A DNA stretch of 64,000 bases from the human T2T-CHM13v2.0 reference genome, Homo sapiens, in NCBI GenBank assembly GCA_009914755.4, contig CP068257.2:576001-640000 (forward strand), written 5' to 3'. Under the pieces are notes generated by a model. It was given only the letters and a program-made list of their open reading frames with translations, was not told the origin of the DNA and ran no database searches. The translations under genes and the position numbers were made by a program. The stretch's first letter is position 1, and each line of letters begins with the position of its first letter. This document shows positions 320 through 30,429 of this stretch, piece after piece.

Positions 320-333
320 ATCACCTAGGTGAT
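320..333. other. Representative perfect 14-bp palindrome ATCACCTAGGTGAT (AvrII CCTAGG core), a variant of the monomer dyad
   Basis: Read directly from the sequence. It recurs once per HOR at this monomer position (e.g. 2359-2372) and at a few other monomer positions. Confidence 0.6.
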
Positions 334-8787: not shown

Positions 8788-10829
8788 CTCTTGGATCTGC
8801 CTATGGGGGCATTGTGACAAATCTCTGCACTGATCACCCAGGTGATGTAACTGTTGTGTAACCTCTGCCTACAGGGGAATTGGGAGAGATCTCGCCACTG
8901 ATCACCCAAGTGATGTAACCATTGTCTAGGCTTTGCGTACAGGGGGCTTTGTGACATACCTTTGCACTGATCACCCAGGTGATGTAACACATCTAAGTTC
9001 GGCCTAAAGGAGCTTTGTGATATATCTCTGCACTGCTCACTTAGGTGATTTAACACTTTTATAAGCACTGCCTACAGGGAATTTTGACGAATCTCTGCAC
9101 TAATGACCTAGGTGATGTAACTCTTGTCTACCCTCTGTCCAACGGGGCATTGTGAAATATCTCTGCACTGATCACCCAGGTGATTCAACTCTTGACTAGG
9201 ATCTGCCTACAGAGGTTATTGTGAAATATCTCTGCACTGATAAACTAAGTGGTGTAACCCTTGTCCAAGCTCTGCCTATAGGGGTGTTTTCACATATCCC
9301 TGAAGTGATGACAAAGGTGATGTAACTTTGCCTAGGCTTTGCCTACAGGGGACAATGGACATATATCTGCACTGATCACCCAGGTGATGCAACTCTTGCC
9401 TAGGCTTTGCCTACAGGGGTCATTGTGACATATCTCTTCAAGGATCACCCATGTGATGCAACTCTTGCCTAGGCTTTGCCTACAGGGGACATTGTGACAT
9501 ATCTCTGAACTGATCTCCCAGGGGCTGTAACTTTAGTCTAGGCTCTCGCTACACGGCATTGTGACATATCACTGCACTGATCAACCAGGTGATATAACTC
9601 TTGTCTAGGCTCTGCCTCCAGGGGGCTTGTGACATATCTCTGCACTGATCACCCAGGTGATATAACTCTTCTCTAGGATCTGCCTACAGGGTGCTTTGTG
9701 ACATATCCCTGCACTGATCACCCAGGTGATCTAACACTGGTCTAAGCTCTGCCTAAAGGGGCATTGTGACAGATCTCTGCACTGATCACTGAGATGATGT
9801 AACCGTTGTCTAGGCTCTGCTTAAAGAGGTCTTGTCACATATCTCTGCACTGGTCACCCAGGTGATGTAACTCTTGTCTAGGCTCTGCTTCCAGGGCATA
9901 TTGTGACATATCTATGCACTGATCACCTTAGTGATGTAACCCTTGTGTAGGCTCGGCCTACAGGGGAATCTTGACCTATCTCTGCACTGCTAACCGAGGT
10001 GATTTCACTCTTGTGTAGGCTGTGCCCACAGGGGGATTGAGACATATCTCTGCACTGATCCCGAAGTGATCCAACTCTTGCCTGGTCTCTGCCTACTAGG
10101 GACATTGTGACATATCTCTGCACTGATCTCCCAGGTGCTGTAACTTTAGTCTAGGCTCTGGCTACACGGCATTGTGACATACCTCTGCACTGATCACCCA
10201 CGTGATGTAACTCTTGCCTAGGCTCTGCCTACAATGGTCTTGTGACATATCTCTGCACTGATCACCCAGGTGATATAACTGTTCTCTAGCATCTGACCAC
10301 AGGGTGCTTTGTGACATATCCCTGCAATGATCACCCAGGAGATATAACTGTTCTCTAGGATCTGACCACAGGGTGTTTTTTGACTTCTCCCTGCAATGAT
10401 CACCCAGGTGATATACCACTTGCCAAGGCTCTGCCTACAGGGACATTGCAATGTATCTCTGCACTGATCACCTAGGTCTTGTAACTCTTTTCTAGGATCT
10501 GCCTACAGGGTGCATTGTGACGTATCCCAGCAAGGATTACCCAGGTGCTGTACCTCTCATCAAGGCTCTGCCTGCAGGCACATTGCGATGTATCTCTGCA
10601 CTGATCACCTAGGTCATGTAACTTTTGTCTACGCTCTGCCTACGATGGCATTGTGACATATCTCTGCACTAATCATCCAAGTGATGTAACTCTTGTCTAA
10701 GATCTGCCTAAATTAACTTTGTGACATAACCCTGTAGTAATCATCCAGGTGATGGGGCTTTTGTCTAGGCTCTGCCTAAGGGGGCATTGTGACATATTTC
10801 TGCATTGATCACCCAGGTGGCGAACTCTT
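8788..10829. repeat. HOR copy 6 (30-mer, 2042 bp)
   Basis: Marker spacing. Confidence 0.8.
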
Positions 10830-12871
10830 CTCTTGGATCTGCCTATGGGGGCATTGTGACAAATCTCTGCACTGATCACCCAAGTGATGTAACTGTTGTG
10901 TAACCTCTGCCTACAGGGGAATTGGGAGAGATCTCGCCACTGATCACCCAAGTGATGTAACCATTGTCTAGGCTTTCCGTACAGGGTGCTTTGTGACATA
11001 CCTTTGCACTGATCACCCAGGTGATGTAACACATCTAAGTTCGGCCTAAAGGAGCTTTGTGACATATCTCTGCACTGATCACTTAGGTGATGTAACACTT
11101 TTATAAGCACTGCCTACAGGGAATTTTGACGAATCTCTGCACTGATCACCTAGGTGATGTAACTCTTGTCTACCCTCTGTCCAACGGGGCATTGTGAAAT
11201 ATCTCTGCACTGATCACCCAGGTGATTCAACTCTTGACTAGGATCTGCCTACAGAGGTTATTGTGAAATATCTCTGCACTGATAAACTAAGTGGTGTAAC
11301 CCTTGTCCAAGCTCTGCCTACAGGGGCGTTTTCACATATCCCTGAAGTGATGACAAAGGTGATGTAACTTTGCCTAGGCTTTGCCTACAGGGGACAATGG
11401 ACATATATCTGCACTGATCACCCAGGTGATGCAATTCTTGCCTAGGCTTTGCCTACAGGGGACATTGTGACATATCTCTTCAATGTTCACCGATGTGATG
11501 CAACTCTTGCCTAGGCTTTGCCTACTGGGGACATTGTGACATATCTCTGTACTGATCTCCCAGGGGCTGTAACTTTATTCTAGGCTCTGGCTACACGGCA
11601 TTGTGACATATCACTGCACTGATCAACCAGGTGATATAACTCTTGTCTAGGCTCTGCCTCCAGGGGGCTTGTGACATATCTCTGCACTGATCACCCAGGT
11701 GATATAACTCTTCTCTAGGATCTGCCTACAGGGTGCTTTGTGACATATCCCTGCACTGAACACCCAGGTGATCTAACACTGGTCTAAGCTCTGCCTAAAG
11801 GGGCATTGTGACAGATCTCTGCACTGATCACTCAGGTGATGTAATCCTTGTCTAGGCTCTGCTTAAAGAGGCCTTGTCACATATCTCTGCACTGGTCACC
11901 CAGGTGATGTAACTCTTGTCTAGGCTCTGCTTCCAGGGCATATTGTGACATATCTGTGCACTGATCACCTTAGTGATGTAACCCTTGTGTAGGCTCGGCC
12001 TACAGGGGAATCTTGACCTATCTCTGCACTGCTAACCGAGGTGATTTAACTCTTGTGAAGGCCGTGCCCACAGGGGGATTGAGACATATCTCTGCACTGA
12101 TCCCGAAGTGATCCAACTCTTGCCTGGTCTCTGCCTACTAGGGACATTGTGATATATCTCTGCACTGATCTCCCAGGTGCTGTAACTTTAGTCTAGGCTT
12201 TGGCTACACGGCATTGTGACATATCTCTGCACTGATCACCCACGTGATGTAACTCTTGCCTATGCTCTGCCTACAATGGTCTTGTGACATATCTCTGCAC
12301 TGATCACCCAGGTGATATAACTGTTCTCTAGCATCTGACCACAGGGTGCTTTGTGACATATCCCTGCAATGATCACCCAGGTGATATAACTGTTTTCTGG
12401 AATCTGACCATAGGGTGTTTTGTGACTTATCCCTGCAATGATCACCCAGGTGATATACCACTTGCCAAGGCTCTGCCTACAGGGACATTGCAATGTATCT
12501 CTGCACTGATGACCTAGGTCTTGTAACTCTTTTCTAGGATCTGCCTACAGGGTGCTTTGTGACGTATCCCAGCAAGGATTACCCAGGTGCTGTACCTCTC
12601 ATCAAGGCTCTGCCTGCAGGCACATTGCGATGTATCTCTGCACTGATCACCTAGGTCATGTAACATTTGTCTACGATCTGCCTACGATGGCATTGTGACA
12701 TATCTCTGCACTAATCATCCAAGTGATGTAACTCTTTTCTAGGATCTGCCTAAATTAACTTTGTGACATAACCCTGTAATGATCATCCAGGTGATGGGGC
12801 TTTTGTCTAGGCTCTGCCTAAGGGGGCATTGTGACATATTTCTGCATTGATCACCCAGGTGGCGAACCCTT
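10830..12871. repeat. HOR copy 7 (30-mer, 2042 bp)
   Basis: Marker spacing. Confidence 0.8.
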
Positions 12872-14913
12872 CTCTTGGATCTGCCTATGGGGACATTGTG
12901 ACAAATCTCTGCACTGATCACCCAGGTGATGTAACTGTTGTGTAACCTCTGCCTACAGGGGAATTGTGAGAGATCTCGCCACTGATCACCCAAGTGATGT
13001 AACCATTGTCTAGGCTTTGCGTACAGGGTGCTTTGTGACATACCTTTGCACTGATCACCCAGGTGATGTAACACATCTAAGTTCGGCCTAAAGGAGCTTT
13101 GTGACATATCTCTGCACTGATCACTTAGGGGATGTAACACTTTTATAAGCAGTGCCTACAGGGAATTTTGACGAATCTCTGTACTGATCACCTAGGTGAT
13201 GTAACTCTTGTCTACCCTCTGTCCAACGGGGCATTGTGAAATAACTCTGCACTGATCACCCAGGTGATTCAACTCTTGACTAGGATCTGCCTACAGAGGT
13301 TATTGTGAAATATCTCTGCACTGATAAACTAAGTGGTGTAACCCTTGTCCAAGCTCTGCCTACAGAGGCGTTTTCACATATCCCTGAAGTGATGACAAAG
13401 GTGATGTAACTTTGACTAGGCTTTGCCTACAGGGGACATTGGATATATATCTGCACTGATCACCCAGGTGATGCAACTCTTGCTTAGGCTTTGCCTACAG
13501 GGGACATTATGACATATCTCTTCAATGATCTCCCATGTGATGCAACTCTTGCCTAGGCTTTGCCTACAGGGGACATTGTGACATATCTCTGCACTGATCT
13601 CCCAGGGGTTGTAACTTTAGTCTAGGCTCTGGCTACACGGCATTGTGACATATCACTGCACTGATCAACCAGGTGATATAACTCTTGTCTAGGCTCTGCC
13701 TCCAGGGGGCTTGTGACATATCTCTGCACTGATCACCCAGGTGATATAACTCTTCTCTAGGATCTGCCTACAGGGTGCTTTGTGACATATCCCTGCACTG
13801 ATCACCCAGGTGATCTAACACTGGTCTAAGCTCTGCCTAAAGGGGCATTGTGACAGATCTCTGCACTGATCACTCAGGTGATGTAACTGTTGTCTAGGCT
13901 CTGCTTAAAGAGGCCTTGTCACATATCTCTGCACTGGTCACCCAGGTGATGTAACTCTTGTCTAGGCTCTGCTTCCAGGGCATATTGTGACATATCTATG
14001 CACTGATCACCTTAGTGATGTAACCCTTGTGTAGGCTCGGCCTACAGGGGAATCTTGACCTATCTCTGCACTGCTAACCGAGGTGATTTCACTCTTGGGT
14101 AGGCTGTGCCCACAGGGGGATTGAGACATATCTCTGCACTGATCCCGAAGTGATCCAACTCTTGCCTGGTCTCTGCCTACTAGGGACATTGTGACATATC
14201 TCTGTACTGATCTCCCAGGTGCTGTAACATTAGTCTAGGCTCTGGCTACACGGCATTGTGACATACCTCTGCACTGATCACCCACGTGATGTAACTCTTG
14301 CCTAGGCTCTGCCTACAATGGTCTTGTGACATATCTCTGCACTGATCTCCCAGGTGATATAACTGTTCTCTAGCATCTGACCACAGGGTGCTTTGTGACA
14401 TATCCCTGCAATGATCACCCAGGTGATATAACTGTTCTCTAGGATCTGACCACAGGGTGTTTTTTGACTTATCCCTGCAATGATCACCCAGGTGATATAC
14501 CACTTGCCAAGGCTCTGCCTACAGGGGCATTGCAATGTATCTCTGCACTGATCACCTAGGTCTTGTAACTCTTTTCTAGGATCTGCCTACAGGGTGCTTT
14601 GTGACGTATCCCAGCAAGGATTACCCAGGTGCTGTACCTCTCATCAAGGCTCTGCCTGCAGGCACATTGCGATGTATCTCTGCACTGATCACCTAGGTCA
14701 TGTAACTTATGTCTACGCTCTGCCTACGATGGCATTGTGACATATCTCTGCACTAATCATCCAAGTGATGTAACTCTTGTCTAAGATCTGCCTAAATTAA
14801 CTTTGTGACATAACCCTGTAGTAATCATCCAGGTGATGGGGCTTTTGTCTAGGCTCTGCCTAAGGGGGCATTGTGACATATTTCTGCATTGATCACCCAG
14901 GTGGCGAACTCTT
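12872..14913. repeat. HOR copy 8 (30-mer, 2042 bp)
   Basis: Marker spacing. Shares the private variant ttcactcttgggtaggctgtg with copy 9. Confidence 0.8.
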
Positions 14914-16955
14914 CTCTTGGATCTGCCTATGGGGGCATTGTGACAAATCTCTGCACTGATCACCCAGGTGATGTAACTGTTGTGTAACCTCTGCCTACAG
15001 GGGAATTGTGAGAGATCTCGCCACTGATCACCCAAGTGATGTAACCATTGTCTAGGCTTTGCGTACAGGGTGCTTTGTGACATACCTTTGCACTGATCAC
15101 CCAGGTGATGTAACACATCTAAGTTCGGCCTAAAGGAGCTTTGTGACATATCTCTGCACTGATCACTTAGGGGATGTAACACTTTTATAAGCACTGCCTA
15201 CAGGGAATTTTGACGAATCTCTGCACTGATCACCTAGGTGATGTAACTCTTGTCTACCCTCTGTCCAACGGGGCATTGTGAAATATCTCTGCACTGATCA
15301 CCCAGGTGATTCAACTCTTGACTAGGATCTGCCTACAGAGGTTATTGTGAAATATCTCTGCACTGATAAACTAAGTGGTGTAACCCTTGTCCAAGCTCTG
15401 CCTACAGGGGCGTTTTCACATATCCCTGAAGTGATGACAAAGGTGATGTAACTTTGCCTAGGCTTTGCCTACAGGGGACATTGGATATATGTCTGCACTG
15501 ATCACCCAGGTGATGCAACTCTTGCTTAGGCTTTGCCTACAGGGGACATTGTGACATATCTCTTCAATGATCTCCTATGTGATGCAACTCTTGCCTAGGC
15601 TTTGCCTACAGGGGACATTGTGACATATCTCTGCACTGATCTCCCAGGGGCTGTAACTTTAGTCTAGGCTCTGGCTACACGGCATTGTGACATATCACTG
15701 CACTGATCAACCAGGTGATATAACTCTTGTCTAGGCTCTGCCTCCAGGGGGCTTGTGACATATCTCTGCACTGATCACCCAGGTGATATAACTCTTCTCT
15801 AGGATCTGCCTACAGGGTGCTTTGTGACATATCCCTGCACTGATCACCCAGGTGATCTAACACTGGTCTAAGCTCTGCCTAAAGGGGCATTGTGACAGAT
15901 CTCTGCACTGATCACTCAAGTGATGTAACTGTTGTCTAGGCTCTGCTTAAAGAGTCCTTGTCACATATCTCTGCACTGGTCACCCAGGTGATGTAACTCT
16001 TGTTTAGGCTCTGCTTCCAGGGCATATTGTGACATATCTATGCACTGATCACCTTAGTGATGTAACCCTTGTGTAGGCTCGGCCTACAGGGGAATCTTGA
16101 CCTATCTCTGCACTGCTAACCGAGGTGATTTCACTCTTGGGTAGGCTGTGCCCACAGGGGGATTGAGACATATCTCTGCACTGATCCCGAAGTGATCCAA
16201 CTCTTGCCTGGTCTCTGCCTACTAGGGACATTGTGACATATCTCTGCCCTGATCTCCCAGGTGCTGTAACTTTAGTCTAGGCTCTGGCTACACGGCATTG
16301 TGACATACATCTGCACTGATCACCCACGTGATGTAACTCTTGCCTAGGCTCTGCCTACAATGGTCTTGTGACATATCACTGCACTGATCACCCAGGTGAT
16401 ATAACTGTTCTCTAGCATCTGACCACAGGGTGCTTTGTGACATATCCCTGCAATGATCACCCAGGAGATATAACTGTTCTCTGGGATCTGACCACAGGGT
16501 GTTTTTTGACTTATCCCTGCAATGATCACCCAGGTGATATAACACTTGCCAAGGCTCTGCCTACAGGGGCATTGCAATGTATCTCTGCACTGATCACCTA
16601 GGTCTTGTAACTCTTTTCTAGGATCTGCCTACAGGGTGCATTGTGACGTATCCCAGCAAGGATTACCCAGGTGCTGTACCTCTCATCAAGGCTCTGCCTG
16701 CAGGCACATTGCGATGTATCTCTGCACTGATCACCTAGGTCATGTAACTTTTGTCTACGCTCTGCCTACGATGGCACTGTGACATATCTCTGCACTAATC
16801 ATCCAAGTGATGTAACTCTTGTCTAAGATCTGCCTAAATTAACTTTGTGACATAACCCTGTAGTAATCATCCAGGTGATGGGGCTTTTGTCTAGGCTCTG
16901 CCTAAGGGGGCATTGTGACATATTTCTGCATTGATCACCCAGGTGGCGAACTCTT
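14914..16955. repeat. HOR copy 9 (30-mer, 2042 bp)
   Basis: Marker spacing. Confidence 0.8.
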
Positions 16956-18997
16956 CTCTTGGATCTGCCTATGGGGGCATTGTGACAAATCTCTGCACTG
17001 ATCACCCAGGTGATGTAACTGTTGTGTAACCTCTGCCTACAGGGGAATTGGGAGAGATCTCGCCACTGATCACCCAAGTGATGTAACCATTGTCTAGGCT
17101 TTGCGTACAGGGTGCTTTGTGACATACCTTTGCACTGATCACCCAGGTGATGTAACACATCTAAGTTCGGCCTAAAGGAGCTTTGTGACATATCTCTGCA
17201 CTGATCACTTAGGTGATGTAACACTTTTGTAAGCACTGTCTACAGGGAATTTTGACGAATCTCTGCACTGATCACCTAGGTGATGTAACTCTTGTCTACC
17301 CTCTGTCCAACGGGGCATTGTGAAATATCTCTGCACTGATCACCCAGGTGATTCAACTCTTGACTAGGATCTGCCTACAGAGGTTATTGTGAAATATCTC
17401 TTCACTGATAAACTAAGTGGTGTAACCCTTGTCCAAGCTCTGCCTACAGGGGCGTTTTCACATATCCCTGAAGTGATGACAAAGGTGATGTAACTTTGCC
17501 TAGGCTTTGCCTACAGGGGACAATGGACATATATCTGCACTGATCACCCAGGTGATGCAATTCTTGCCTAGGCTTTGCCTACAGGGGACATTGTGACATA
17601 TCTCTTCAATGATCACCGTTGTGATGCAACTCTTGCCTAGGCTTTGCCTACAGGGGACATTGTGACATATCTCTGCACTGATCTCCCAGGGGCTGTAACT
17701 TTAGTCTAGGCTCTGGCTACACGGCATTGTGACATATCACTGCACTGATCAACCAGGTGATATAACTCTTGTCTAGGCTCTGCCTCCAGGGGGCTTGTGA
17801 CATATCTCTGCACTGATCACCCAGGTGATATAACTCTTCTCTAGGATCTGCCCACAGGGTGCTTTGTGACATATCCCTGCACTGATCACCCAGGTGATCT
17901 AACACTGGTCTAAGCTCTGCCTAAAGGGGCATTGTGACAGATCTCTGCACTGATCACTCAGGTGATGTAACTGTTGTCTAGGCTCTGCTTAAAGAGGCCT
18001 TGTCACATATCTCTGCACTGGTCACCCAGGTGATGTAACTCTTGTCTAGGCTCTGCTTCCAGGGCATATTGTGACATATCTATGCACTGATCACCTTAGT
18101 GATGTAACCCTTGTGTAGGCTCGGCCTACAGGAGAATCTTGACCTATCTCTGCACTACTAACCGAGGTGATTTCACTCTTGTGTAGGCTGTGCCCACAGG
18201 GGGATTGAGACATATCTTTGCACTGATCCCGAAGTGATCCAACTCTTGCCTGGTCTCTGCCTACTAGGGACATTGTGACATATCTCTGCACTGATCTCCC
18301 AGGTGCTGTAACTTTAGTCTAGGCTCTGGCTACACGGCATTGTGACATACCTCTGCACTGATCACCCACGTGATGTAACTCTTGCCTAGGCTCTGCCTAC
18401 AATGGTCTTGTGACATATCTCTGCACTGATCACCCAGGTGATATAACTGTTCTCTAGCATCTGACCACAGGGTGCTTTGTGACATATCCCTGCAATGATC
18501 ACCCAGGTGATATAACTGTTCTCTAGGATCTGACCACAGGGTGTTTTGTGACTTATCCCTGCAATGATCACCCAGGTGATATACCACTTGCCAAGGCTGT
18601 GCCTACAGGGGCATTGCAATGTATCTCTGCACTGATCACCTAGGTCTTGTAACTCTTTTCTAGGATCTGCCTACAGGGTGCTTTGTGACGTATCCCAGCA
18701 AGGATTACCCAGGTGCTGTACCTCTCATCAAGGCTCTGCCTGCAGGCACATTGCGATGTATCTCTGCACTGATCACCTAGGTCATGTAACTTTTGTCTAC
18801 GCTCTGCCTACGATGGCATTGTGACATATCTCTGCACTAATCATCCAAGTGATGTAACTCTTGTCTAAGATCTGCCTAAATTAACTTTGTGACATAACCC
18901 TGTAGTAATCATCCAGGTGATGGGGCTTTTGTCTAGGCTCTGCCTAAGGGGGCATTGTGACATATTTCTGCATTGATCACCCAGGTGGCGAACTCTT
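16956..18997. repeat. HOR copy 10 (30-mer, 2042 bp)
   Basis: Marker spacing. Confidence 0.8.
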
Positions 18998-20970
18998 CTC
19001 TTGGATCTGCCTATGGGGGCATTGTGACAAATCTCTGCACTGATCACCCAGGTGATGTAACTGTTGTGTAACCTCTGCCTACAGGGGAATTGGGAGAGAT
19101 CTCGCCACTGATCTCCCAAGTGATGTAACCATTGTCTAGGCTTTGCGTACAGGGTGCTTTGTGACATACCTTTGCACTGATCACCCAGGTGATGTAACAC
19201 ATCTAAGTTCGGCCTAAAGGAGCTTTGTGACATACCTCTGCACTCATCACTTACGTGATGTAACACTTTTATAAGCACTGCCTACAGGGAATTTTGACAA
19301 ATCTCTGCACTGATCACCTAGGTGATGTAACTCTTGTCTACCCTCTGTCCAACGGGGCATTGTGAAATATCTCTGCACTGATCACCCAGGTGATTCAACT
19401 CTTGACTAGGATCTGCCTACAGAGGTTATTGTGAAATATCTCTGCACTGATAAACTAAGTGGTGTAACCCTTGTCAAAGCTCTGCCTACAGGGGCGTTTT
19501 CACATATCCCTGAAGTGATGAGAAAGGTGATGTAACATTGCCAAGGGTTTGCCTACAGGGGACATTGGACATATATCTGCACTGACCACCCAGGTGATGC
19601 AACTCTTGCCTAGGCTTTGCCTACAGGGGACAGTGTGACATATCTCCGCACTGATCTCCCAGGGGCTGTAACTTTAGTCTAGGCTCTGGCTACACGGCAT
19701 TGTGACATATCACTGCACTGATCAACCAGGTGATATAACCCTTGTCTAGCCTCTGCCTCCAGGGGGCTTGTGACATATCTCTGCACTGATCACCCAGGTG
19801 ATATAACTCTTCTCTAGGATCTGCCTACAGGGTGCTTTGTGACATATCCCTGCACTGATCACCCAGGTGATCTAACACTGGTCTAAGCTCTGCCTAAAGG
19901 GGCATTGTGACAGATCTCTGCACTGATCACTCAGGTGATGTAACTGTTGTCTAGGCTCTGCTTAAAGAGGTCTTGTCACATATCTCTGCACTGGTCACCC
20001 AGGTGATGTAACTCTTGTCTAGGCTCTGCTTCCAGGCCATATTGTAACATATCTATGCACTGATCACCTTAGTGATGTAACACTTGTGTAGGCTCGGCCT
20101 ACAGGGGAATCTTGACCTATCTCTGCACTGTTAACCGAGGTGATTTAACTCTTGTCTAGGCTGTGCCCACAGGGGGATTGAGACATATCTCTGCACTGAT
20201 CCCGAAGTGATCCAAATCTTGCCTGGTCTCTGCCTACTAGGGACATTGTGACATATCTCTGCACTGATCTCCCAGGTGCTGTAACTTTAGTCTAGGCTCT
20301 GGCTACACGGCATTGTGACATATCTCTGCACTGATCACCCACGTGATGTAACTCTTGCCTAGGCTCTGCCTACAATGGTCTTGTTACATATCTCTGCACT
20401 GATCACCCAGGTGGTATAACTGTTCTCTAGGATCTGACCACAGGGTGCTTTGTGACATATCCCTGCAATGATCACCCAGGTGATATAACTGTTCTCTAGG
20501 ATCTGACCACAGGGTGTTTTGTGACTTATCCCTACAATGATCACCCAGGTGATATTCCACTTGCCAAGGCTCTGCCTACAGGGGCATTGCAATGTGTCTC
20601 TGCACTGATCACCTAGGTCTTGTAACTCTTTTCTAGGATCTGCCTACAGGGTGCTTTGTGACGTATCCCAGCAAGGATTACTCAGGTGCTGTACCTCTCA
20701 TCAAGGCTCTGCCTGCAGGCACATTGCGATGTATCTCTGCACTGATCACCTAGGTAGTGTAACTTTTGTCTACGCTCTGCCTACGATGGCATTGTGACAT
20801 ATCTCTGCACTAGTCATCCAAATTATGTAACTCTTGTCTAGGATCTGCCTAAATTAACTTTGTGACATAACCCTGTAGTGATCATCCAGGTGATGGGGCT
20901 TTTGTCTAGGCTCTGCCTAAGGGGGCATTGTGACATATTTCTGCATTGATCACCCAGGTGGCGAACTCTT
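18998..20970. repeat. HOR copy 11 (29-mer, 1973 bp; one monomer lost at about 19645)
   Basis: Marker spacing 1973. The junction gacagtgtgacatatctccgcactgatctcccagg lacks the cttcaatgatcacccatgtgatgcaac monomer. Confidence 0.8.
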
Positions 20971-23012
20971 CTCTCGGATCTGCCTATGGGGGCATTGTGA
21001 AAAATCTCTGCACTGATCACCCAGGTGATGTAACTGTTGTGTAACCTCTGCCTACAGGGGAATTGTGAGAGATCTCGCCACTGATCACCCAAGTGATGTA
21101 ACCATTGTCTAGGCTTTGCGTACAGGGTGCTTTGGGACATACCTTTGCACTGATCACCCAGGTGATGTAACACATCTAAGTTCGGCCTAAAGGAGCTTTG
21201 TGACATATCTCTGCACTCATCACTTAGGTGATGTAACACTTTTATAAGCACTGCCTACAGGGAATTTTGACGAATCTCTGCACTGATCACCTAGGTGATG
21301 TAACTCTTGTCTACCCTCTGTCCAACGGGGCATTGTGAAATATCTCTGCACTGATCACCCAGGTGATTCAACTCTTGACTAGGATCTGCCTACAGAGGTT
21401 ATTGTGAAATATCTCTGCACTGATAAACTAAGTGGTGTAACCCTTGTGCAAGCTCTGCCTACAGGGGCGTTTTCACATATCCCTGAAGTGATGACAAAGG
21501 TGATGTAACTTTGTCTAGGCTTTGCCTACAAGGGACATTGGACATATATCTACACTGATCACACAGGTGATGCAACTCTTGCCTAGGCTTTGCCTACAGG
21601 GGACATTGTGACATATCTCTTCAATGATCACCCATGTGATGCAACTCTTGCCTAGGCTTTGCCTACAGGGGACATTGTGACATATCTCTGCACTGTTCTC
21701 CCAGGGGCTGTAACTTTAGTCGAGGCTCTGGCTACACGGCATTGTGACATGTCACTGCACTGATCAACCAGGTGATATAACTCTTGTCTAGGCTCTGCCT
21801 CCAGGGGGCTTGTGACATATTTCTGCACTGATCACCCAGGTGATATAACTCTTCTCTAGGATCTGCCTACAGGGTGCTTTGTGACATATCCCTGCACTGA
21901 TCACCCAGATGATCTAACACTGGTCTAAGCTCTGTCTAAAAGGGCATTGTGACAGATCTCTGCACTGATCACTCAGGTGATGTAACTGTTGTCTATTCTC
22001 TGCTTAAAGAGGCCTTGTCACATATCTCTGCACTGGTCACCCAGGTGATGTAACTCTTGTCTAGGCTCTGCTTCCAGGGCATATTGTGACATATCTATGC
22101 ACTGATCACCTTAGTGATGTAACCCTTGTGTAGGCTCGGCCTACAGGGGAATCTTGACCTATCTCTGCACTGTTAACCGAGGTGATTTAACTCTTGTCTA
22201 GGCTGTGCCCACAGGGGGATTGAGACATATCTCTGCACTGATCCCGAAGTGATCCAACTCTTGCCTGGTCTCTGCCTACTAGGGACATTGTGACATATCT
22301 CTGCACTGATCTCCCAGGTGCTGTAAATTTAGTCTAGGCTCTGGCTACACGGCATTGTGACATATCTCTGCACAGATCACCCACGTGATGTAACTCGTGC
22401 CTAGGCTCTGCCTACAATGCTCTTGTGACATATCTCTGCACTGATCACCCAGGTGATATAACTGTTCTCTAGGATCTGACCACAGGGTGCTTTGTGACAT
22501 ATCCCTGCAATGATCACCCAGGTGATATAACTGTTCTCTAGGATCTGACCACAGGGTGTTTTGTGACTTATCCCTGCAATGATCACCCAGGTGATATAAC
22601 ACTTGCCAAGGCTCTGCCTACAGGGGAATTGCAATGTATCTCTGCACTGATCACCTAGGTCTTGTAACTCTTTTCTAGGATCTGCCTACAGGGTGCTTTG
22701 TGACGTATCCCAGCAAGGATTACTCAGGTGCTGTACCTCTCATCAAGGCTCTGCCTGCAGGCACATTGCTATGTATCTCTGCACTGATCACCTAGGTCAT
22801 GTAACTTTTGTCTAGGCTCTGCCTACGATGGCATTGTGACCTATCTCTGCACTAATCATCCAAGTGATGTAGCTCTTGTCTAGGATCTGCCTAAATTAAC
22901 TTTGTGACATAACCCTGTAGTGATCATCCAGGTGATGGGGCTTTTGTCTAGGCTCTGCCTAAGGGGGCGTTGTGACATATTTCTGCATTGATCACCCAGG
23001 TGGCGAACTCTT
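20971..23012. repeat. HOR copy 12 (30-mer, 2042 bp)
   Basis: Marker spacing. Confidence 0.8.
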
Positions 23013-25054
23013 CTCTTGGATCTGCCTATAGGGGCATTGTGACAAATCTCTGCACTGATCACCCAGGTGATGTAACTGTTGTGTAACCTCTGCCTACAGG
23101 GGAATTGGGAGAGATCTCGCCACTGATCACCCAAGTGATGTAACCATTGTCTAGGCTTTGCGTACAGGGTGCTTTGTGACATACCTTTGCACTGATCACC
23201 CAGGTGATGTAACACATCTAAGTTCGGCCTAAAGGAGCTTTGTGACATATCTCTGCACTCATCACTTAGGTGATGTAACACTTTTATAAGCACTGCCTAC
23301 AGGGAATTTTGACGAATCTCTGCACTGATCACCTAGGTGATGTAACTCTTGTCTACCCTCTGTCCAACGGGGCATTGTGAAATATCTCTGCACTGATCAC
23401 CCAGGTGATTCAACTCTTGACTAGGATCTGCCTACAGAGGTTATTGTGAAATATCTCTGCACTGATAAACTAAGTGGTGTAACCCTTGTCCAAGCTCTGC
23501 CTACAGGGGCGTTTTCACATATCCCTGAAGTGATGACAAAGGTGATGTAACTTTGCCTAGGCTTTGCCTAAAGGGGACATTGGACATATATCTGCACTGA
23601 TCACCCAGGTGATGCAACTCTTGCCTAGGCTTTGCCTACAGGGGACATTGTGACATATCTCTTCAATGATCACCCATGTGATGCAACTCTTACCTAGGCT
23701 ATGCCTACAGGGGACATTTTGACATATCTCTGTACTGATCTCCCATGGGCTGTAACTTTAGTCTAGGCTCTGGCTACACGGCATTGTGACATATCACTGC
23801 ACTGATCAACCAGGTGATATAACTCTTGTCTAGGCTCTGCCTCCAGGGGGCTTGTGACATATCTCTGCACAGATCACCCAGGTGATATAACTCTTCTCTA
23901 GGATCTGCCTACAGGGTGCTTTGTGACATATCCCTGCACTGATCACCCAGGTGATCTAGCACTGGTCTATGCTCTGCCTAAAGGGGAATTGTGACAGATC
24001 TCTGCACTGATCACTCAGGTGATGTAACTGTTGTCTATTCTCTGCTTAAAGAGGCCTTATCACATATCTCTGCACTGGTCACCCAGGTGATGTAACTCTT
24101 GTCTAGGCTCTGCTTCCAGGGCATATTGTGACATATCTATGCACTGATCACCTTAGTGATGTAACCCTTGTGTAGGCTCGGCCTACAGGGGAATCTTGAC
24201 CTATCTCTGCACTGTTAACCGAGGTGATTTAACTCTTGTCTAGGCTGTGCCCACAGGGGGATTGAGACATATCTCTGCACTGATCCCGAAGTGATCCAAC
24301 TCTTGCCTGGTCTCTGCCTACTAGGGACATTGTGACATATCTCTGCACTGATCTCCCAGGTGCTGTAAATTTAGTCTAGGCTCTGGCTACACGGCATTGT
24401 GACATATCTCTGCACAGATCACCCACGTGATGTAACTCGTGCCTAGGCTCTGCCTACAATGCTCTTGTGACATATCTCTGCACTGATCACCCAGGTGATA
24501 TAACTGTTCTCTAGGATCTGACCACAGGGTGCTTTGTGACATATCCCTGCAATGATCACCCAGGTGATATAACTGTTCTCTAGGATCTGACCACAGGGTG
24601 TTTTGTGACTTATCCCTGCAATGATCACCCAGGTGATATAACACTTGCCAAGGCTCTGCCTACAGGGGAATTGCAATGTATCTCTGCACTGATCACCTAG
24701 GTCTTGTAACTCTTTTCTAGGATCTGCCTACAGGGTGCTTTGTGACGTATCCCAGCAAGGATTTCTCAGGTGCTGTACCTCTCATCAAGGCTCTGCCTGC
24801 AGGCACATTGCTATGTATCTCTGCACTGATCACCTAGGTCATGTAACTTTTGTCTAGGCTCTGCCTACGATGGCATTGTGACCTATCTCTGCACTAATCA
24901 TCCAAGTGATGTAGCTCTTGTCTAGGATCTGCCTAAATTAACTTTGTGACATAACCCTGTAGTGATCAACCAGGTGATGGGGCTTTTGTCTAGGCTCTGC
25001 CTAAGGGGGCGTTGTGACATATTTCTGCATTGATCACCCAGGTGGCGAACTCTT
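23013..25054. repeat. HOR copy 13 (30-mer, 2042 bp)
   Basis: Marker spacing. It is nearly identical to copy 12 at an offset of 2042 bp and shares many private variants with it. Confidence 0.8.
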
Positions 25055-27094
25055 CTCTTGGATCTGCCTATAGGGGCATTGTGACAAATCTCTGCACTGA
25101 TCACCCAGGTGATGTAACTGTTGTGTAACCTCTGCCTACAGGGGAATTGTGAGAGATCTCGCCACTGATCACCCAAGTGATGTAACCATTGTCTAGGCTT
25201 TGCGTACAGGGTGCTTTGTGACATACCTTTGCACTGATCACCCAGGTGATGTAACACATCTAAGTTCGGCCTAAAGGAGCTTTGTGACATATCTCTGCAC
25301 TCATCACTTAGGTGATGTAACACTTTTATAAGCACTGCCTACAGGGAATTTTGACGAATCTCTGCACTGATCACCTAGGTGATGTAACTCTTGTCTACCC
25401 TCTGTCCAACGGGGCATTGTGAAATATCTCTGCACTGATCACCCAGGTGATTCAACTCTTGACTAGGATCTGCCTACAGAGGTTATTGTGAAATATCTCT
25501 GCACTGATAAACTAAGTGGTGTAACCCCTGTCCAAGCTCTGCCTACAGGGGCGTTTTCACATATCCCTGAAGTGATGACAAAGGTGATGTAACTTTGCCT
25601 AGGCTTTGCCTAAAGGGGACATTGGACATATATCTGCACTGATCACCCAGGTGATGCAACTCTTGCCTAGGCTTTGCCTACAGGGTCATTGTGACATATC
25701 TCTTCAATGATCACCCCTGTGATGCAACTCTTGCCTAGGCTTTGCCTACAGGGGACATTGTGACATATCTCTGTACTGATCTCCCATGGGCTGTAACTTT
25801 AGTCTAGGCTCTGGCTACACGGCATTGTGACATATCACTGCACTGATCAACCAGGTGATATAACTCTTGTCTAGGCTCTGCCTCCAGGGGGCTTGTGACA
25901 TATCTCTGCACAGATCACCCAGGTGATATAACTCTTCTCTAGGATCTGCCTACAGGGTGCTTTGTGACATATCCCTGCACTGATCACCCAGGTGATCTAA
26001 CACTGGTCTATGCTCTGCCTAAAGGGGAATTGTGACAGATCTCTGCACTGATCACTCAAGTGATGTAACTGTTGTCTAGGCTCTGCTTAAAGAGGCCTTG
26101 TCACATATCTCTGCACTGGTCACCCAGGTGATGTAACTCTTGTCTAGGCTCTGCTTCCAGGGCATATTGTGACATATCTATGCACTGATCACCTTAGTGA
26201 TGTAACCCTTGTGTAGGCTCGGCCTACAGGGGAATCTTGACCTATCTCTGCACTGTTAACCGAGGTGATTTAACTCTTGTCTAGGCTGTGCCCACAGGGG
26301 GATTGAGACATATCTCTGCACTGATCCCGAAGTGATCCAACTCTTGCCTAGTCTCTGCCTACTAGGGACATTGTGACATATCTCTGCACTGATCTCCCAG
26401 GTGCTGTAACTTTAGTCTAGGCTCTGGCTACACGGCATTGTGACATATCACTGCACTGATCACCCACGTGATGTAACTCTTGCCTAGGCTCTGCCTACAA
26501 TTGTCTTGTGACATATCTCTGCACTGATCACCCAGGTGATATAACTGTTCTCTAGGATCTGACCACAGGGTGCTTTGTGACATATCCTTGCAATGATCAC
26601 CCAGGTGATATAACTGTTCTCTAGGATCTGACCACAGGGTGTATTGTGACTTATCCCTGCAATGATCACCCAGGTGATATACCACTTGCCAAGGCTCTGC
26701 CTACAGGGGCATTGCAATGTATCTCTGCACTGATCACCTAGGTCTTGTATCTTTTTTCTAGGACCTGCCTACAGGGTGCTTTGTGACGTATCCCAGCAAG
26801 GATTACTCAGGTGTTGTACCTCTCATCAAGGCTCTGCCTGCAGGCACATTGCGATGTATCTCTGCACTGATCACCTAGGTCATGTAACTTTTGTCTACGC
26901 TCTGCCTACGATGGCATTGTGACATATCTCTGCCTAATCATCCAAATGATGTAGCTCTTGTCTAGGATCTGCCTAAATTAACTTTGTGACATAACCCTGT
27001 AGTGATCATCCAGGTGATGGGGCTTTTGATTAGGCTCTGCCTAAGGGGGCATTGTGACATATTTCTGCATTGATCACCCAGGTGGCGAACTCTT
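25055..27094. repeat. HOR copy 14 (30-mer, 2040 bp)
   Basis: Marker spacing. Confidence 0.8.
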
Positions 27095-28523
27095 GTCTCG
27101 GATCTGACTATGGGGGCATTGTGACAAATCTCTGCACTGATCACCCAGGTGATGTAACTGTTGCGTAACCTCTGCCTACAGGGGAATTGTGAGAGATCTC
27201 GCCACTGATCACCCAAGTGATGTAACCATTGTCTAGGCTTTGCGTACAGGGTGCTTTGTGACATACCTTTGCACTGATCACCCAGGTGATGTAACACATC
27301 TAAGTTCGGCCTAAAGGAGCTTTGTGACATATCTCTGCACTCATCACTTAGGTGATGTAACACTTTTATAAGCACTGCCTACAGGGAATTTTGACAAATC
27401 TCTGCACTGATCACCTAGGTGATGTAACTCTTGTCTACCCTCTGTCCAACGGGGCATTGTGAAATATCTCTGCACTGATCACCCAGGTGATTCAACTCTT
27501 GACTAGGATCTGCCTACAGAGTTTATTGTGAAATATTTCTCCACTGATAAACTAAGTGGTGTAACCCTTGCCCATGCTCTGCCTACAGGGGCGTTTTCAC
27601 ATATCCCTGAAGTGATGACAAAGGTGATGTAACTTTGCCTAGGCTTTGCCTACAGGGGACATTGGACATATATCTGCACTGATCACCCAGGTGATGCAAC
27701 TCTTGCCTAGGCTTTGCCTACAGGGGACATTGTGACATATCTCTTCAATGATCACCCATGTGATGCAACTCTTCCCTAGGCTTTGCCTACAGGGGACATT
27801 GTGATATATCCCTGCACTGATCTCCCAGGGGCTGTAACTTTAGTCTAGGCTCTGGCTACACGGCATTGTGACATATCCCTGCACTGATCACCCGCGTGAT
27901 GTAACTCTTGCCTAGGCTCTGCCTACAATGGTCTTGTGACATATCTCTGCACTGATCACCCAGGTGATATAACTGTTCTCTAGGATCTGACCACAGGGTG
28001 CTTTGTGACATATCCCTGCAATGATCACCCAGGTGATATAACTGTTCTCTAGGATCTGACCACAGGGTGTTTTGTGACTTATCCCTGCAATGATCCCCCA
28101 GGTGATATACCACTTGCCAAGGCTCTGCCTACAGGGGCATTGCAATGTGTCTCTGCACTGATCACCTAGGTCTTGTAACTATTTTCTAGGATCTGCCTAC
28201 AGGGTGCTTTGTGACGTATCCCAGCAAGGATTACTCAGGTGCTGTACCTCTCATCAAGGCTCTGCCTGCAGGCACATTGCGATGTATCTCTGCACTGATC
28301 ACCTAGGTCATGTAACTTTTGTCTACGCTCTGCCTACGATGGCATTGTGACATATCTCTGCACTAATCATCCAAGTGATGTAACTCTTGTCTAGGATCTG
28401 CCTAAATTAACTTTGTGACATAACCCTGTAGTGATCATCCAGGTGATGGGGCTTTTATCTAGGCTCTGCCTAAGGGGGCATTGTGACATATTTCTGCATT
28501 GATCACCCAGGTGGCGAACCCTT
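27095..28523. repeat. HOR copy 15 (21-mer, 1429 bp; 9-monomer deletion)
   Basis: Marker spacing 1429. The offset of the ORF pair at 27856/27912 from the marker is 612 bp shorter than in copy 14. Confidence 0.75.
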
Positions 28524-30429
28524 CTCTTGGATCTGCCTATGGGGCATTGTGACAAATCTCTGCACTGATCACCCAGGTGATGTAACTGTTGTGTAACCTC
28601 TGCCTACAGGGGAATTGGGAGAAATCTCGCCACTGATCACCCAAGTGATGTAACCATTGTCTAGGCTTTGCTTACGGGGTGCTTTGTGACATACCTTTGC
28701 ACTGATCACCCAGGTGATGTAACACATCTAAGTTCGGCCTAAAGGAGCTTTGTGACATATCTCTGCACTCATCACTTAGGTGATGTAACACTTTTATAAG
28801 CACTGCCTTCAGGGAATTTTGACGAATGTCTGCACTGATCACCTAGGTGATGTAACTCTTGTCTACCCTCTGTCCAACGGTGCATTATGAAATATCTCTG
28901 CACTGATCACCCAGGTGATTCAACTCTTGACTAGGATCTGCCTACAGAGTTTATTGTGAAATATTTCTGCACTGATAAACTAAGTGGTGTAACCCTTGTC
29001 CAAGCTCTGCCTACAGGGGCGTTTTCACATATCCCTGAAGTGATGACAAAGGTGATGTAACTTTGCCTAGGCTTTGCCTACAGGGGACATTGGACATATA
29101 TCTGCACTGATCACCCAGGTGATGCAACTCTTGCCTAGGCTTTGCCTACAGGGGAAATTGTGACATATCTCTTCAATGATCACCCTTGTGATGCAACTCT
29201 TGCCTAGGCTTTGCCTACAGGGGACATTGTGACATATCTCTGCACTGATCTCCCAGGGGCTGTAACTTTAGTCTAGGCTCTGGCTACACGGCATTGTGAC
29301 ATATCACTGCACTGATCAACCAGGTGATATAACTCTTGTCTAGGCTCTGCCTCCAGGGGGCTTGTGACATATCTCTGCACTGATCACCCAGGTGATATTA
29401 CTCTCCTCTAGGATCTGCCTACAGGGTGCTTTGTGACATATCCCTGCACTGATCACCCAGGTGATCTAACACTGGTCTAAGCTCTGCCTAAAGGGGCATT
29501 TTGACAGATCTCTGCACTGATCGCTCAGGTGATGTAACTGTTGTCTAGGCTCTGCTTAAAGAGGCCTTGTCACATATCTCTGCACTGGTCACCCAGGTGA
29601 TGTAACTCTTGTCTAGGCTCTGCTTCCAGGGCATATTGTGACATATCTATGCACTGATCACCTTAGTGATGTAACCCTTGTGTAGGCTCGGCCTCCAGGG
29701 GAATCTTGACCTATCTCTGCACTGCTAACCGAGGTGATTTAACTCTTGTGTAGGCTGTGCCCACAGGGGGATTGAGACATATCTCTGCACTGATCCCGAA
29801 GTGATCCAACTCTTGCCTGGTCTCTGCCTACTAGGGACATTGTGACATATCTCTGCACTGATCACCCAGGTGATATAACTGTTCTCTAGGATCTGACCAC
29901 AGGGTGCTTTGTGACATATCCCTGCAATGATCACCCAGGTGTTATAACTGTTCTCTAGGATCTGACCACAGGGTGTTTTGTGACTTATCCCTGCAATGAT
30001 CACCCAGGTGATATACCACTTGCCAAGGCTCTGCCTACAGGGGAATTGCAATGTATCTCTGCACTGATCACCTAGGTCTTGTAACTCTTTTCTAGGATCT
30101 GCCTACAGGGTGCTTTGTGATGTATCCCAGCAAGGATTACTCAGGTGCTGTACCTCTCATCAAGGCTCTGCCTGCAGGCACATTGCGATGTATCTCTGCA
30201 CTGATCACCTAGCTCATGTAACTTTTGTCTACGCTCTGCCTACGATGGCATTGTGACATATCTCTGCACTAATCATCCAAATGATGTAACTCTTGTCTAG
30301 GATCTGCCTAAATTAACTTTGTGACATAACCCTGTAGTGATCATCCAGGTGATGGGGCTTTTGTCTAGGCTCTGCCTAAGGGGGCATTGTGACATATTTC
30401 TGCATTGATCACCCAGGTGGCGAACTCTT
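28524..30429. repeat. HOR copy 16 (28-mer, 1906 bp; 2-monomer deletion near 29860)
   Basis: Marker spacing 1906. At 29841-29880 the sequence ctgcactgatc joins directly to acccaggtgatataactgttc, skipping two monomers. Confidence 0.75.

What the first reader, a model, noticed from the sequence alone, without database searches (positions are those of the whole stretch)
19600..19700. Recurrent collapse hotspot at doublets of near-identical adjacent monomers
The HOR contains two internal doublets of nearly identical neighbouring monomers. One is gatgcaactcttgcctaggctttgcctacaggggacattgtgacatatc followed by cttcaatgatcacccatgtgatgcaactcttgcctaggctttgcctacaggggacattgtgacatatc. The other is the gatataactgttctctaggatctgaccacagggtg pair. 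The first doublet has collapsed in copy 11 (about 19645), in B-prime copies 19 and 20 (about 35575 and 37480) and in copy 23 (43300). The second doublet is single in every B copy and already single in the B part of copy 18 (about 34450). So the 29-mer and 28-mer HORs are deletion derivatives of the 30-mer at the same hotspots. Copy 11 and copy 19 share the odd junction variant ctccgc (normally ctctgc), which may be a common breakpoint scar or a coincidence.
Basis: partly seen in the sequence, partly recalled or inferred. Interest (0 to 1): 0.55.

Follow-up and report, generated by a model that had tools for sequence, protein, structure and literature searches.

The report
Beta-satellite repeat units losing duplicated monomers

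Summary
The whole window is one 68-bp beta-satellite array built from a 30-monomer unit of 2042 bp. There are 33 units in two haplotypes, A (units 1-18) and B (from 34.6 kb).

Both doublets are real.
- I/J are 92.8% alike and share a 54-bp exact tract, the longest internal direct repeat of the unit.
- U1/U2 are 95.7-97% alike.

Confirmed: the I monomer is missing in units 11, 19, 20 and 23. In the B units the surviving monomer is an I-head/J-tail hybrid, so these are derived collapses on at least two backgrounds.

Corrections:
- Unit 23 is not shorter, because it carries a compensating K1-head/J-tail monomer.
- The single U of unit 18 is an A-type U2 in A-type context, so it is an independent collapse and not a "B part".
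- The single U of B is the ancestral state, as related units from other samples show. The 30-mer is therefore a duplication derivative, not the parent.
- Seven further rearrangements lie away from the doublets, at 8-24-bp tracts.

Rearrangements favour long identity tracts (P about 1e-5 to 1e-3). This is known satellite behaviour.

The ctccgc variant is found only in two I-less monomers (P about 5e-5, post hoc) and remains unexplained.

The parts
1..64000 (+). One uninterrupted 68-bp beta-satellite array: 941 monomers in 33 higher-order units (30-mer of 2042 bp canonical). A haplotype covers units 1-18; B haplotype runs from 34.6 kb to the end.
17554..17691 (+). Intact I/J doublet (unit 10): I 17554-17622, J 17623-17691. 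The heads are identical in the consensus and the tails differ at 5 of 17 positions.
19596..19664 (+). Unit 11 (A type, 29-mer, 1973 bp): a single J-type monomer directly after H. I has been lost within the 54-bp identity tract. Carries T51>C (ctccgc, 19644-19649) and a private G38.
35522..35588 (+). Unit 19 (B type, 28-mer): I-head (A12) / J-tail hybrid. The crossover lies in the 37-bp tract at positions 13-49. Carries ctccgc (35570-35575) plus a 2-bp deletion.
37425..37493 (+). Unit 20 (B type, 28-mer): the same I-head/J-tail hybrid, without ctccgc.
43277..43412 (+). Unit 23 (B type, still 29 monomers): I-head/J-tail hybrid at 43277-43345, followed by an extra K1-head/J-tail monomer at 43346-43412. 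In effect [I tail + J head] has been replaced by [J tail + K1 head].
18440..18577 (+). Intact U1/U2 doublet (unit 10): U1 18440-18508, U2 18509-18577. Found only in A-type units.
34434..34502 (+). Unit 18: a single U of A-type U2 sequence (G10, T36, T45) between an A-type T and an A-type V. U1 has been lost within the 48-bp tract (T tail + U head).
34566..34597 (+). Interval in which the array switches from haplotype A to haplotype B (V tail is A-type, W position 27 is B-type).
2713..2918 (+). Unit 2 (22-mer): J-head/K1-tail hybrid at 2713-2781 (1 monomer lost, 11-bp tract) and M-head/K2-tail hybrid at 2850-2918 (7 monomers lost). The same pair occurs in unit 3 at 4211-4279 and 4348-4416.
5236..5370 (+). 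Unit 4 (25-mer): C is joined directly to I. D-H are lost, with the junction in the 8-bp AGGTGATG.
27831..27897 (+). Unit 15 (21-mer): K1/K2 hybrid with nine monomers lost. This pair is 94% alike, with a 45-60-bp identity tract.
29803..29871 (+). Unit 16 (28-mer, 1907 bp): e-head/T-tail hybrid. K2 and T are lost, within a 24-bp tract.
33140..33208 (+). Unit 18 (36-mer): J-head/C-tail hybrid marking a duplication of D-J (7 monomers), within a 24-bp tract.
58451..58584 (+). Unit 30b (26-mer): b is joined directly to D. A-C are lost, with the junction in about 8-10 bp at the monomer boundary.

Best explanation
The window is a simple primate, almost certainly human, beta-satellite (Sau3A-family) array. 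It belongs to the higher-order-repeat family reported from the acrocentric short arms.

The unit grew by monomer duplications. The H/I/J series came first. The U1/U2 doublet arose later and only in the A haplotype. The unit shrinks again by out-of-register homology-directed events. Candidate processes are unequal sister or homologue exchange, single-strand annealing after a break, replication slippage, or short offset gene conversion.

The chance that two monomers pair out of register rises with the length of uninterrupted identity they share. As a result:
- The three longest internal direct repeats of the A unit each show a deletion among only 18 units. These are I/J (54 bp), U1/U2 (48 bp) and K1/K2 (45-60 bp).
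- I/J was hit again on the B background.
- The other rearrangements used the 8-24-bp stretch that nearly all monomers share.

Variants then spread locally by unit-level duplication (units 2-3 and 19-20).

Shown: the anatomy, the hybrid junctions, the polarity and the enrichment. Inferred: which enzymatic pathway acted, and the number of independent events in B.
For: Family assignment:
- The monomer is 68 bp, GATC occurs in 797 of 941 monomers and G+C is 47%. These are the features given for beta satellite in 10.1101/589531, 10.1101/2021.07.12.452052 and PMC8125562.
- CpG observed/expected is 0.17.
- The same units occur in 43 contaminant contigs. L007 is 98.8% identical to B units and is joined to a 1906-7-bp 28-mer. 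That matches the 1906-bp 28-mer of chr22/chr15 described in PMC10760446.

Hybrid junctions: every variant unit has an in-register hybrid monomer.

Identity tracts: I/J is the longest exact internal repeat of the A unit, and the longest at one-monomer offset in B.

Enrichment:
- Pairs used in rearrangements average 84.1% identity against 77.6% for random pairs (P = 4e-5).
- Single-monomer events at the two doublets give P = 0.003 to 2e-5, depending on how events are counted.

Polarity:
- I and J are both present in the A, B and external C-type units, and the B hybrids carry the I-specific A12.
- U is single and of ancestral sequence in all external non-A units.
- The single U of unit 18 is U2-type inside A-type flanks.

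Precedent: variant alpha-satellite units arise by gain and loss of whole monomers and expand locally (PMC7732198, PMC6562703).
Against: - More than half of the events (7 of about 12) are not at high-identity pairs, so identity length is a bias, not a rule.
- J takes part in 5 of 11 junctions, which may point to a local effect beyond homology. This is not significant after correction.
- There are 9 deletions against 2 duplications. No reciprocal I-I-J or triple-U product is seen, which simple reciprocal exchange does not predict. The numbers are small.
- Units 19/20 and 23 share O47T, and 20 and 23 share H10G. The B collapses may therefore be one event, which would leave only two independent I/J losses.
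- An I-less monomer that keeps being converted by full units would look like an I/J hybrid whatever its origin.
- External contigs are short-read assemblies and may be chimeric or collapsed.
- Singleton variants (units 11, 18, 23) could not be checked against raw reads.
Confidence: 0.8

Rival explanations
1. The 30-mer is the parent form, and every shorter unit is a deletion derivative produced at the two doublets, including the B 29-mer, which is said to have lost one U.
For: The doublets are the most similar neighbours. A true U1/U2 collapse does exist in unit 18. The I/J losses are real.
Against: - The single U of B cannot be produced by a U1-head/U2-tail crossover. It has G19, C36 and A45 plus the ancestral C10, while U1 and U2 share a derived G10.
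- All related units from other samples have one U with the ancestral sequence.
- Units 2, 3, 4, 15, 16 and 30b were shortened at other positions.
Confidence: 0.1
2. The I-less units are not recurrent de novo collapses. They are copies of, or conversions from, a pre-existing paralogous arrangement in which H is followed by a single I/J-head monomer carrying CTCCGC. A break in the I head would be repaired from such a donor and would re-anneal in the J tail. That removes one monomer and imports the C in the same step.
For: - CTCCGC at this site occurs in the window only in two I-less monomers, against 0 of 476 other monomers with TCTCTGC (Fisher P = 5e-5, post hoc).
- An I/J-head monomer with ATATCTCCGCACTG directly after H exists at array edges in L018 and L024.
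- The same variant is fixed in another flanking monomer type.
- Units 20 and 23 share H10G, so one CpG-to-TpG decay could explain why they lack the C. CpG observed/expected is 0.17.
Against: - No other donor-specific variant is seen in unit 11 or unit 19, and the heads offer no markers.
- The donor tail (ATCACCC) was not copied.
- In L018 and L024 the monomer sits in a differently organised edge and is not a simple I-less unit.
- Unit 19 also has a 2-bp deletion at the site.
Confidence: 0.25
3. The T-to-C change is a mutational scar of the collapse itself, made by error-prone synthesis or mismatch processing at the last matched base before the first I/J mismatch.
For: The change sits at position 51, the last base of the identity tract and immediately 5' of the first I/J difference. 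This holds on both backgrounds.
Against: - I found no templated or repair route that gives T-to-C there. The heteroduplex mismatches would be T:C or G:A at position 52.
- Units 20 and 23 lack the change.
- An identical substitution in independent events is not what random polymerase errors produce.
Confidence: 0.12
4. The singleton length variants (units 11, 18, 23) are assembly or consensus artefacts in a highly repetitive region.
For: They could not be checked against reads. Each occurs once.
Against: - Each variant unit carries its own private substitutions and clean in-register hybrids.
- The same kind of variant occurs in tandem pairs whose copies have since diverged (units 2/3 at 2.2%, units 19/20 at 1.9%).
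- A 69-bp exact loss is not a typical long-read error.
Confidence: 0.05

Closest known systems
Human beta satellite (Sau3A family) higher-order repeats of the acrocentric short arms (pB4-type; the 1906-bp 28-mer of T2T-CHM13 chr22 and chr15, PMC10760446; PMC8125562)
   Same: - 68-bp monomers with a GATC site and about 77% identity between monomers.
- A unit of about 2 kb built from 28-30 monomers.
- Contaminant contigs link a B-type unit of this window directly to a 1906-7-bp 28-mer.
   Different: - The units here are a 30-mer (A) and a 29-mer (B).
- The widespread 28-mer lacks T and has one U but keeps both I and J. It is therefore not the 28-mer of units 19/20.
- The chromosome of origin of the window is not known.
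Structurally variant alpha-satellite higher-order repeats (D17Z1 16/15/14/13-mers, D11Z1 6m1/7m1x3, DXZ1 variants; Warburton, Waye and Willard 1993 as cited in PMC6562703; PMC7732198)
   Same: - Whole-monomer gains and losses with in-register hybrid monomers.
- Breakpoints that fall non-randomly within the monomer.
- Local tandem spread of a variant.
- Array haplotypes that each carry their own variant sets.
   Different: - A different satellite family (68 bp rather than 171 bp) that is pericentromeric or on the short arm, not centromeric, with no CENP-B box involved.
- Here the preference can be tied to measured identity-tract lengths inside one unit.
Deletion between short direct repeats by single-strand annealing or replication slippage (general DNA-repair knowledge, from memory)
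   Same: - Loss of exactly one repeat plus the spacer.
- The junction lies inside the identity tract.
- Frequency rises with tract length.
- An excess of deletions over duplications (9 to 2).
   Different: - The pathway was not tested.
- Unequal exchange or offset gene conversion would leave the same products.
- Unit 23 looks more like a short offset conversion than a deletion.

Membership tests
Beta satellite (Sau3A family) DNA | Tandem array of monomers of about 68 bp | tested here: met
   TRF finds period 68 with 940 copies over 1-63990. Monomer lengths are 66-69 bp. The definition is taken from 10.1101/2021.07.12.452052 and PMC8125562.
Beta satellite (Sau3A family) DNA | Sau3A (GATC) site in nearly every monomer and G+C around 47-50% | tested here: met
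   GATC occurs in 797 of 941 monomers. G+C is 0.46-0.48 throughout. The feature is as described in 10.1101/589531.
Beta satellite (Sau3A family) DNA | Sequence match to a reference beta-satellite consensus or clone (pB3/pB4, BSR) | not testable with these tools
   No reference sequence was available. A text search of the literature for monomer fragments found nothing, and Waye and Willard 1989 is not held. Indirect support: the same units occur as human-type contaminants, and a 28-mer of 1906-7 bp matches the description in PMC10760446.
Beta satellite (Sau3A family) DNA | Monomers organised in multimeric higher-order repeats | tested here: met
   The unit has 30 monomers (2042 bp). Units are 1-3% apart within a haplotype, while monomers within a unit are 77.6% alike.
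Variant higher-order units made by out-of-register (unequal) recombination | Length changes by whole monomers, with an in-register hybrid monomer at the junction | tested here: met
   All 12 junctions are in register. Hybrids were painted against parental consensus sequences.
Variant higher-order units made by out-of-register (unequal) recombination | Junctions prefer the most similar monomer pairs or longest identity tracts | tested here: met
   Pairs ranked 1, 2 and 3 of 435 were each used. Mean identity of used pairs is 84.1% against 77.6% (P = 4e-5). Seven events nevertheless used ordinary pairs.
Variant higher-order units made by out-of-register (unequal) recombination | Reciprocal duplication products are present | tested here: inconclusive
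   Two duplications are present (7 monomers in unit 18, 1 monomer in unit 23) against 9 deletions. No I-I-J or triple-U unit is present. The U1/U2 doublet itself is an old duplication.
Variant higher-order units made by out-of-register (unequal) recombination | The variants are polymorphic in the population | not testable with these tools
   No human long-read or pangenome data could be searched. None of about 25 external units covering H-K lacks I.
Single-strand annealing or replication slippage between direct repeats | Dependence on the pathway's enzymes, non-reciprocal outcome | not testable with these tools
   Only the products are visible. The deletion excess of 9 to 2 is suggestive (two-sided binomial P of about 0.07, my arithmetic).

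The most novel reading that the evidence does not exclude
Loss of the I monomer may be tied mechanistically to a specific base change. That change is T-to-C at the last base of the I/J identity tract, and it creates a CpG in a strongly CpG-depleted satellite. Two routes are possible. The collapse may be templated by a CG-bearing paralogue that lacks I, which would be evidence of exchange between array edges or between acrocentric arms. Alternatively, the repair pathway may leave a reproducible signature. Either way, beta-satellite length variants would carry a readable record of the event that made them.
Probability: 0.3. Interest if true: 0.5.

Novelty: new member of a known kind. Interest (0 to 1): 0.25.

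Why it matters
It gives a clean, fully resolved small example of how a satellite repeat unit changes length. The unit grows by monomer duplication. The young duplicates then become the preferred sites of loss, in proportion to the length of uninterrupted identity they share. Such rules are useful for annotating beta-satellite arrays on acrocentric short arms and for choosing markers of array haplotypes. They also help in reading the direction of change: here the longest unit is the derived one. The work adds no new mechanism. Two by-products have practical value. First, this human satellite sits as contamination in several bacterial reference assemblies. Second, there is a possible junction-linked substitution that complete human assemblies could test quickly.

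Tried and rejected
- A literature search for monomer sequence fragments found no paper. Waye and Willard 1989 is not held, and the PMC copy of Altemose 2022 is not held (I used the bioRxiv version). The assignment to beta satellite therefore rests on defining features, not on a reference alignment.
- A scan of viral contigs for the I/J head found nothing. Rfam found nothing in the window.
- I first rejected the 'scar' idea because unit 20 lacks ctccgc. I withdrew that rejection when units 20 and 23 turned out to share H10G, because a CpG would decay fast here (CpG observed/expected 0.17).
- I first counted L018, L024 and L020 as independent external I-less units. On reading the sequences, they are differently organised array edges or a possibly chimeric contig, not simple I-less units, so they do not count as further collapses.
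- I looked for a route by which the CGC of B-type I (ATCGCTTC) could have templated the CCGC of unit 19. The motifs are out of register by 3-5 nt, and A-type I has no such motif, so I rejected this.
- I tested whether the single U of B could be a U1-head/U2-tail crossover product. Its states at positions 19, 36 and 45 are in the wrong order for that.
- MAFFT places the one-monomer gap at H rather than at I, because H resembles the I head. The hybrid painting, not that alignment, locates the junctions.
- J takes part in 5 of 11 junctions. After setting aside the I/J events and correcting for choosing the most-used monomer, this is not significant (my arithmetic).
Full report
**What the window is.** Tandem Repeats Finder reports a single array of a 68-bp unit over 1-63990, 76% matches, with no interruption. 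G+C is 0.46-0.48 throughout. Base-by-base autocorrelation peaks at 2042 bp, then 1974 and 1905 bp. These lags correspond to units of 30, 29 and 28 monomers. GATC is present in 797 of 941 monomers, and CpG is at 0.17 of expectation. A 68-bp monomer, a Sau3A site in nearly every monomer, G+C of 47-50% and a higher-order organisation are the features by which beta satellite is defined (10.1101/589531; 10.1101/2021.07.12.452052; PMC8125562). I could not align to a reference clone, because none was available. Rfam finds nothing.

**Numbering the monomers.** I cut the window into 941 monomers with a wrap-around alignment to the consensus. I then computed all pairwise edit distances and clustered them. 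The canonical unit is A B C D E F G H I J K1 L M N O P Q R e K2 T U1 U2 V W X Y Z a b.

| Units | Monomers | Note |
|---|---|---|
| 1, 5-10, 12-14, 17 | 30 | canonical A type |
| 2, 3 | 22 | |
| 4 | 25 | |
| 11 | 29 | |
| 15 | 21 | |
| 16 | 28 | |
| 18 | 36 | |
| 19, 20 | 28 | |
| 21-29, 30, 31 | 29 | |
| after unit 30 | 26 | lacks A-C; called 30b here |

Consensus sequences of the canonical 30-mers (A type) and 29-mers (B type) differ at 61 positions over 29 shared monomers. Units are 1-3% apart within a type and 4-6% apart between types. The switch from A to B lies inside unit 18, between 34566 and 34597.

**The doublets.** Among the 435 pairs of monomer positions the mean identity is 77.6 +/- 4.8%. 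U1/U2 (95.7%) rank first, K1/K2 (94.0%, nine monomers apart) second, and I/J (92.8%) third, tied with M/U1. I/J are not uniformly similar. In the A consensus their first 52 nt are identical and the last 17 differ at five positions. Together with the last two bases of the preceding monomer, this gives a 54-bp exact direct repeat at 69-bp spacing. That is the longest exact internal repeat of the A unit. In B the tract is 37 bp, because B-type I has A at position 12 and G at position 50. In units 1-4 and 11-17, U1 and U2 differ at only two positions, which gives a 48-bp tract.

**The I/J losses.** H is followed by a single I/J-head monomer in four units:

- unit 11 (19596-19664)
- unit 19 (35522-35588)
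- unit 20 (37425-37493)
- unit 23 (43277-43345)

Painting against the parental consensus sequences shows that the three B-type monomers carry the I-specific A12 and then the J tail. The junction therefore lies in positions 13-49. In unit 11 the heads are uninformative and the junction lies anywhere in the 54-bp tract. I and J are both present in the A and B types, and also in a third type (C) found in sequences from other samples. The I-less state is therefore derived.

Unit 11 sits on an A background and the others on B, so there were at least two events. Whether unit 23 is separate from units 19/20 is open. Units 19, 20 and 23 share O47T, and units 20 and 23 share H10G, whereas units 19 and 20 share six variants downstream. 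The region is a mosaic.

Unit 23 is not shorter than its neighbours. A K1-head/J-tail monomer (43346-43412) follows the hybrid, so that [I tail + J head] has in effect been replaced by [J tail + K1 head]. This could be either a short conversion from a donor offset by one monomer, or a loss followed by a gain.

**The U doublet and the direction of change.** But that U has C10, G19, C36 and A45, plus two private changes (G43, T47). U1 and U2 both have G10, and U2 alone has T36 and T45. A U1-head/U2-tail crossover cannot give the B sequence. C10, C36 and A45 are also the states of the paralogue M.

To get an outgroup, I searched public contig collections for the 37-nt I/J head tract. It occurs in 36 metagenome contigs and 7 contigs of nominally bacterial assemblies, which I take to be human contamination. 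I labelled their monomers with my consensus set.

- L007 carries 1.9 kb that is 98.8% identical to B units of the window, joined to a 28-monomer unit of 1906-7 bp. L034 shows the same period.
- This fits the 1906-bp, 28-copy beta-satellite unit reported in tandem on chr22 and chr15 of T2T-CHM13 (PMC10760446).
- In all these external non-A units U is single. Its sequence is exactly the inferred ancestral one: C10, G19, C36, A43, A45, A47.

The U1/U2 doublet is therefore a duplication that arose in the A lineage after G10. The B 29-mer is the older state, and the 30-mer is the derivative.

A true collapse of this doublet does exist. The single U of unit 18 (34434-34502) has G10, T36 and T45, so it is U2. 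It lies between an A-type T and an A-type V, upstream of the A-to-B switch. It is not in the 'B part'.

**Other rearrangements.** The window holds seven more events, each with an in-register hybrid.

| Unit(s) | Junction | Coordinates | Change | Identity tract |
|---|---|---|---|---|
| 2, 3 | J/K1 | 2713, 4211 | 1 monomer lost | 11 bp |
| 2, 3 | M/K2 | 2850, 4348 | 7 monomers lost | a few bp |
| 4 | C joined to I | 5301/5302 | 5 monomers lost | 8 bp |
| 15 | K1/K2 | 27831 | 9 monomers lost | 45-60 bp |
| 16 | e/T | 29803 | 2 monomers lost | 24 bp |
| 18 | J/C | 33140 | 7 monomers duplicated | 24 bp |
| 30b | b joined to D | 58517/58518 | 3 monomers lost | 8-10 bp |

Most of these junctions fall in the part of the monomer that nearly all monomers share, either TTGTGACATATCTCTGCACTGATC or AGGTGATG.

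**Is there a hotspot?** Yes, in a statistical sense.

- The three longest exact repeats of the A unit (I/J, U1/U2, K1/K2) each show one deletion among 18 A-type units, and I/J was used again in B.
- Pairs used in rearrangements average 84.1% identity against 77.6% for random pairs (P = 4e-5).
- Of five to seven single-monomer events, three to five fall on the two doublets out of 30 adjacent pairs (P = 0.003 to 2e-5).

But more than half of all events lie elsewhere.

**Mechanism.** The products are those expected from out-of-register pairing of monomers, followed by exchange, annealing or copying. Nothing in the sequence tells these apart. Nine deletions against two duplications, and the absence of I-I-J or triple-U units, lean towards non-reciprocal routes. 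These would be single-strand annealing, slippage or short conversion, but the numbers are small. Units 2/3 and 19/20 show that a variant then spreads by duplication of whole units. All this parallels what is known for variant alpha-satellite units (PMC7732198; PMC6562703, citing Warburton et al. 1993).

**The ctccgc variant.** ATATCTCCGC occurs twice in the window, at 19640 and 35566, both in I-less monomers. None of 476 other monomers with TCTCTGC has it (Fisher P = 5e-5, computed after the fact). The change is T-to-C at position 51, the last base of the identity tract. In unit 19 it is accompanied by a 2-bp deletion. Units 20 and 23 lack it. They share H10G, however, and a new CpG would decay quickly in this sequence, so their state does not exclude a C in the common ancestor.

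Outside the window, an I/J-head monomer with ATATCTCCGCACTG lies directly after H at differently organised array edges (L018, L024). The same variant is fixed in another flanking monomer type. Three readings remain:

- the C was imported together with the loss of I by repair from such a paralogue;
- the change is a scar of the collapse;
- it is coincidence.

I could not find a repair route that would produce the change de novo, and there are no further markers with which to test a donor. I leave this point unexplained.

**Verdict.** It is wrong about the 30-mer being the parent of the B 29-mer and about unit 18. It is incomplete in ignoring the other rearrangements. What is there is an ordinary, well-resolved case of satellite unit evolution.

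Noticed in passing
window 32528-34978 (unit 18); switch at 34566-34597: Unit 18 combines three changes within 2.4 kb: a 7-monomer duplication (J/C hybrid at 33140-33208), loss of U1, and the switch from haplotype A to haplotype B. The haplotype boundary looks like a site of repeated exchange.
   Followed up: partly
window 31090-31389 versus 31703-32002 (every unit): Old internal paralogy at nine-monomer offset: J-K1-L-M resembles e-K2-T-U, 89% over 300 nt. In external contigs (L003, L012, L019, L029) K1-L are replaced by K2-T-like monomers, which suggests exchange between the two segments.
   Followed up: partly
L037-L043 (genome contigs): Whole contigs of species-representative 'bacterial' assemblies consist of this human-type beta-satellite unit. 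The assemblies are Actinomadura cremea BMRF01000120.1, Streptosporangium violaceochromogenes, Campylobacter concisus, Legionella sp., Actinacidiphila cocklensis, a Desulfobacteraceae MAG and Octadecabacter dasysiphoniae. This is almost certainly contamination. It is relevant to published claims of horizontal transfer of beta satellite (10.1101/589531).
   Followed up: partly
L007 1950-3949; L034 2144-5822: A widespread 28-monomer unit of 1906-7 bp lacks T and has one U but keeps I and J. It is adjacent to a B-type 29-mer in L007 and to a T-containing unit in L034. It probably equals the 1906-bp unit of chr22/chr15 in PMC10760446. The dominant short unit elsewhere is therefore not a doublet collapse.
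   Followed up: partly
window, I and J monomers of all units (e.g. 17554-17691): The I and J heads differ at 0-1 of 52 positions in each of three haplotypes, while their tails differ at 5 of 17, with the same differences in all haplotypes. The I tail (CAATGATCACCC) is closer to the U/M tail than to the J tail. Either I is a chimeric monomer, or the heads are kept alike by conversion.
   Followed up: no
window 12383-12451, 23680-23748, 60828-60896: Single monomers carry clusters of 5-7 private substitutions (a U2 variant in unit 7, a J variant in unit 13, an I variant in unit 31) in otherwise ordinary units.
   Followed up: no
window, whole: CpG is at 0.17 of expectation, with TG and CA in excess. 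This is consistent with long-term germline methylation of this satellite.
   Followed up: no
L001-L003, L011, L028 (about 5 monomers after H-I-J); L010, L014, L022, L025: Several contigs run from the repeat unit, always breaking after J, into diverged monomeric beta satellite and then into a G+C-rich non-satellite sequence (GCTGGTACCTGGGCCGGCTCTGGGATCCCC...). The array edge seems to lie at the I/J position, and the flank may be an LSau-type element.
   Followed up: no
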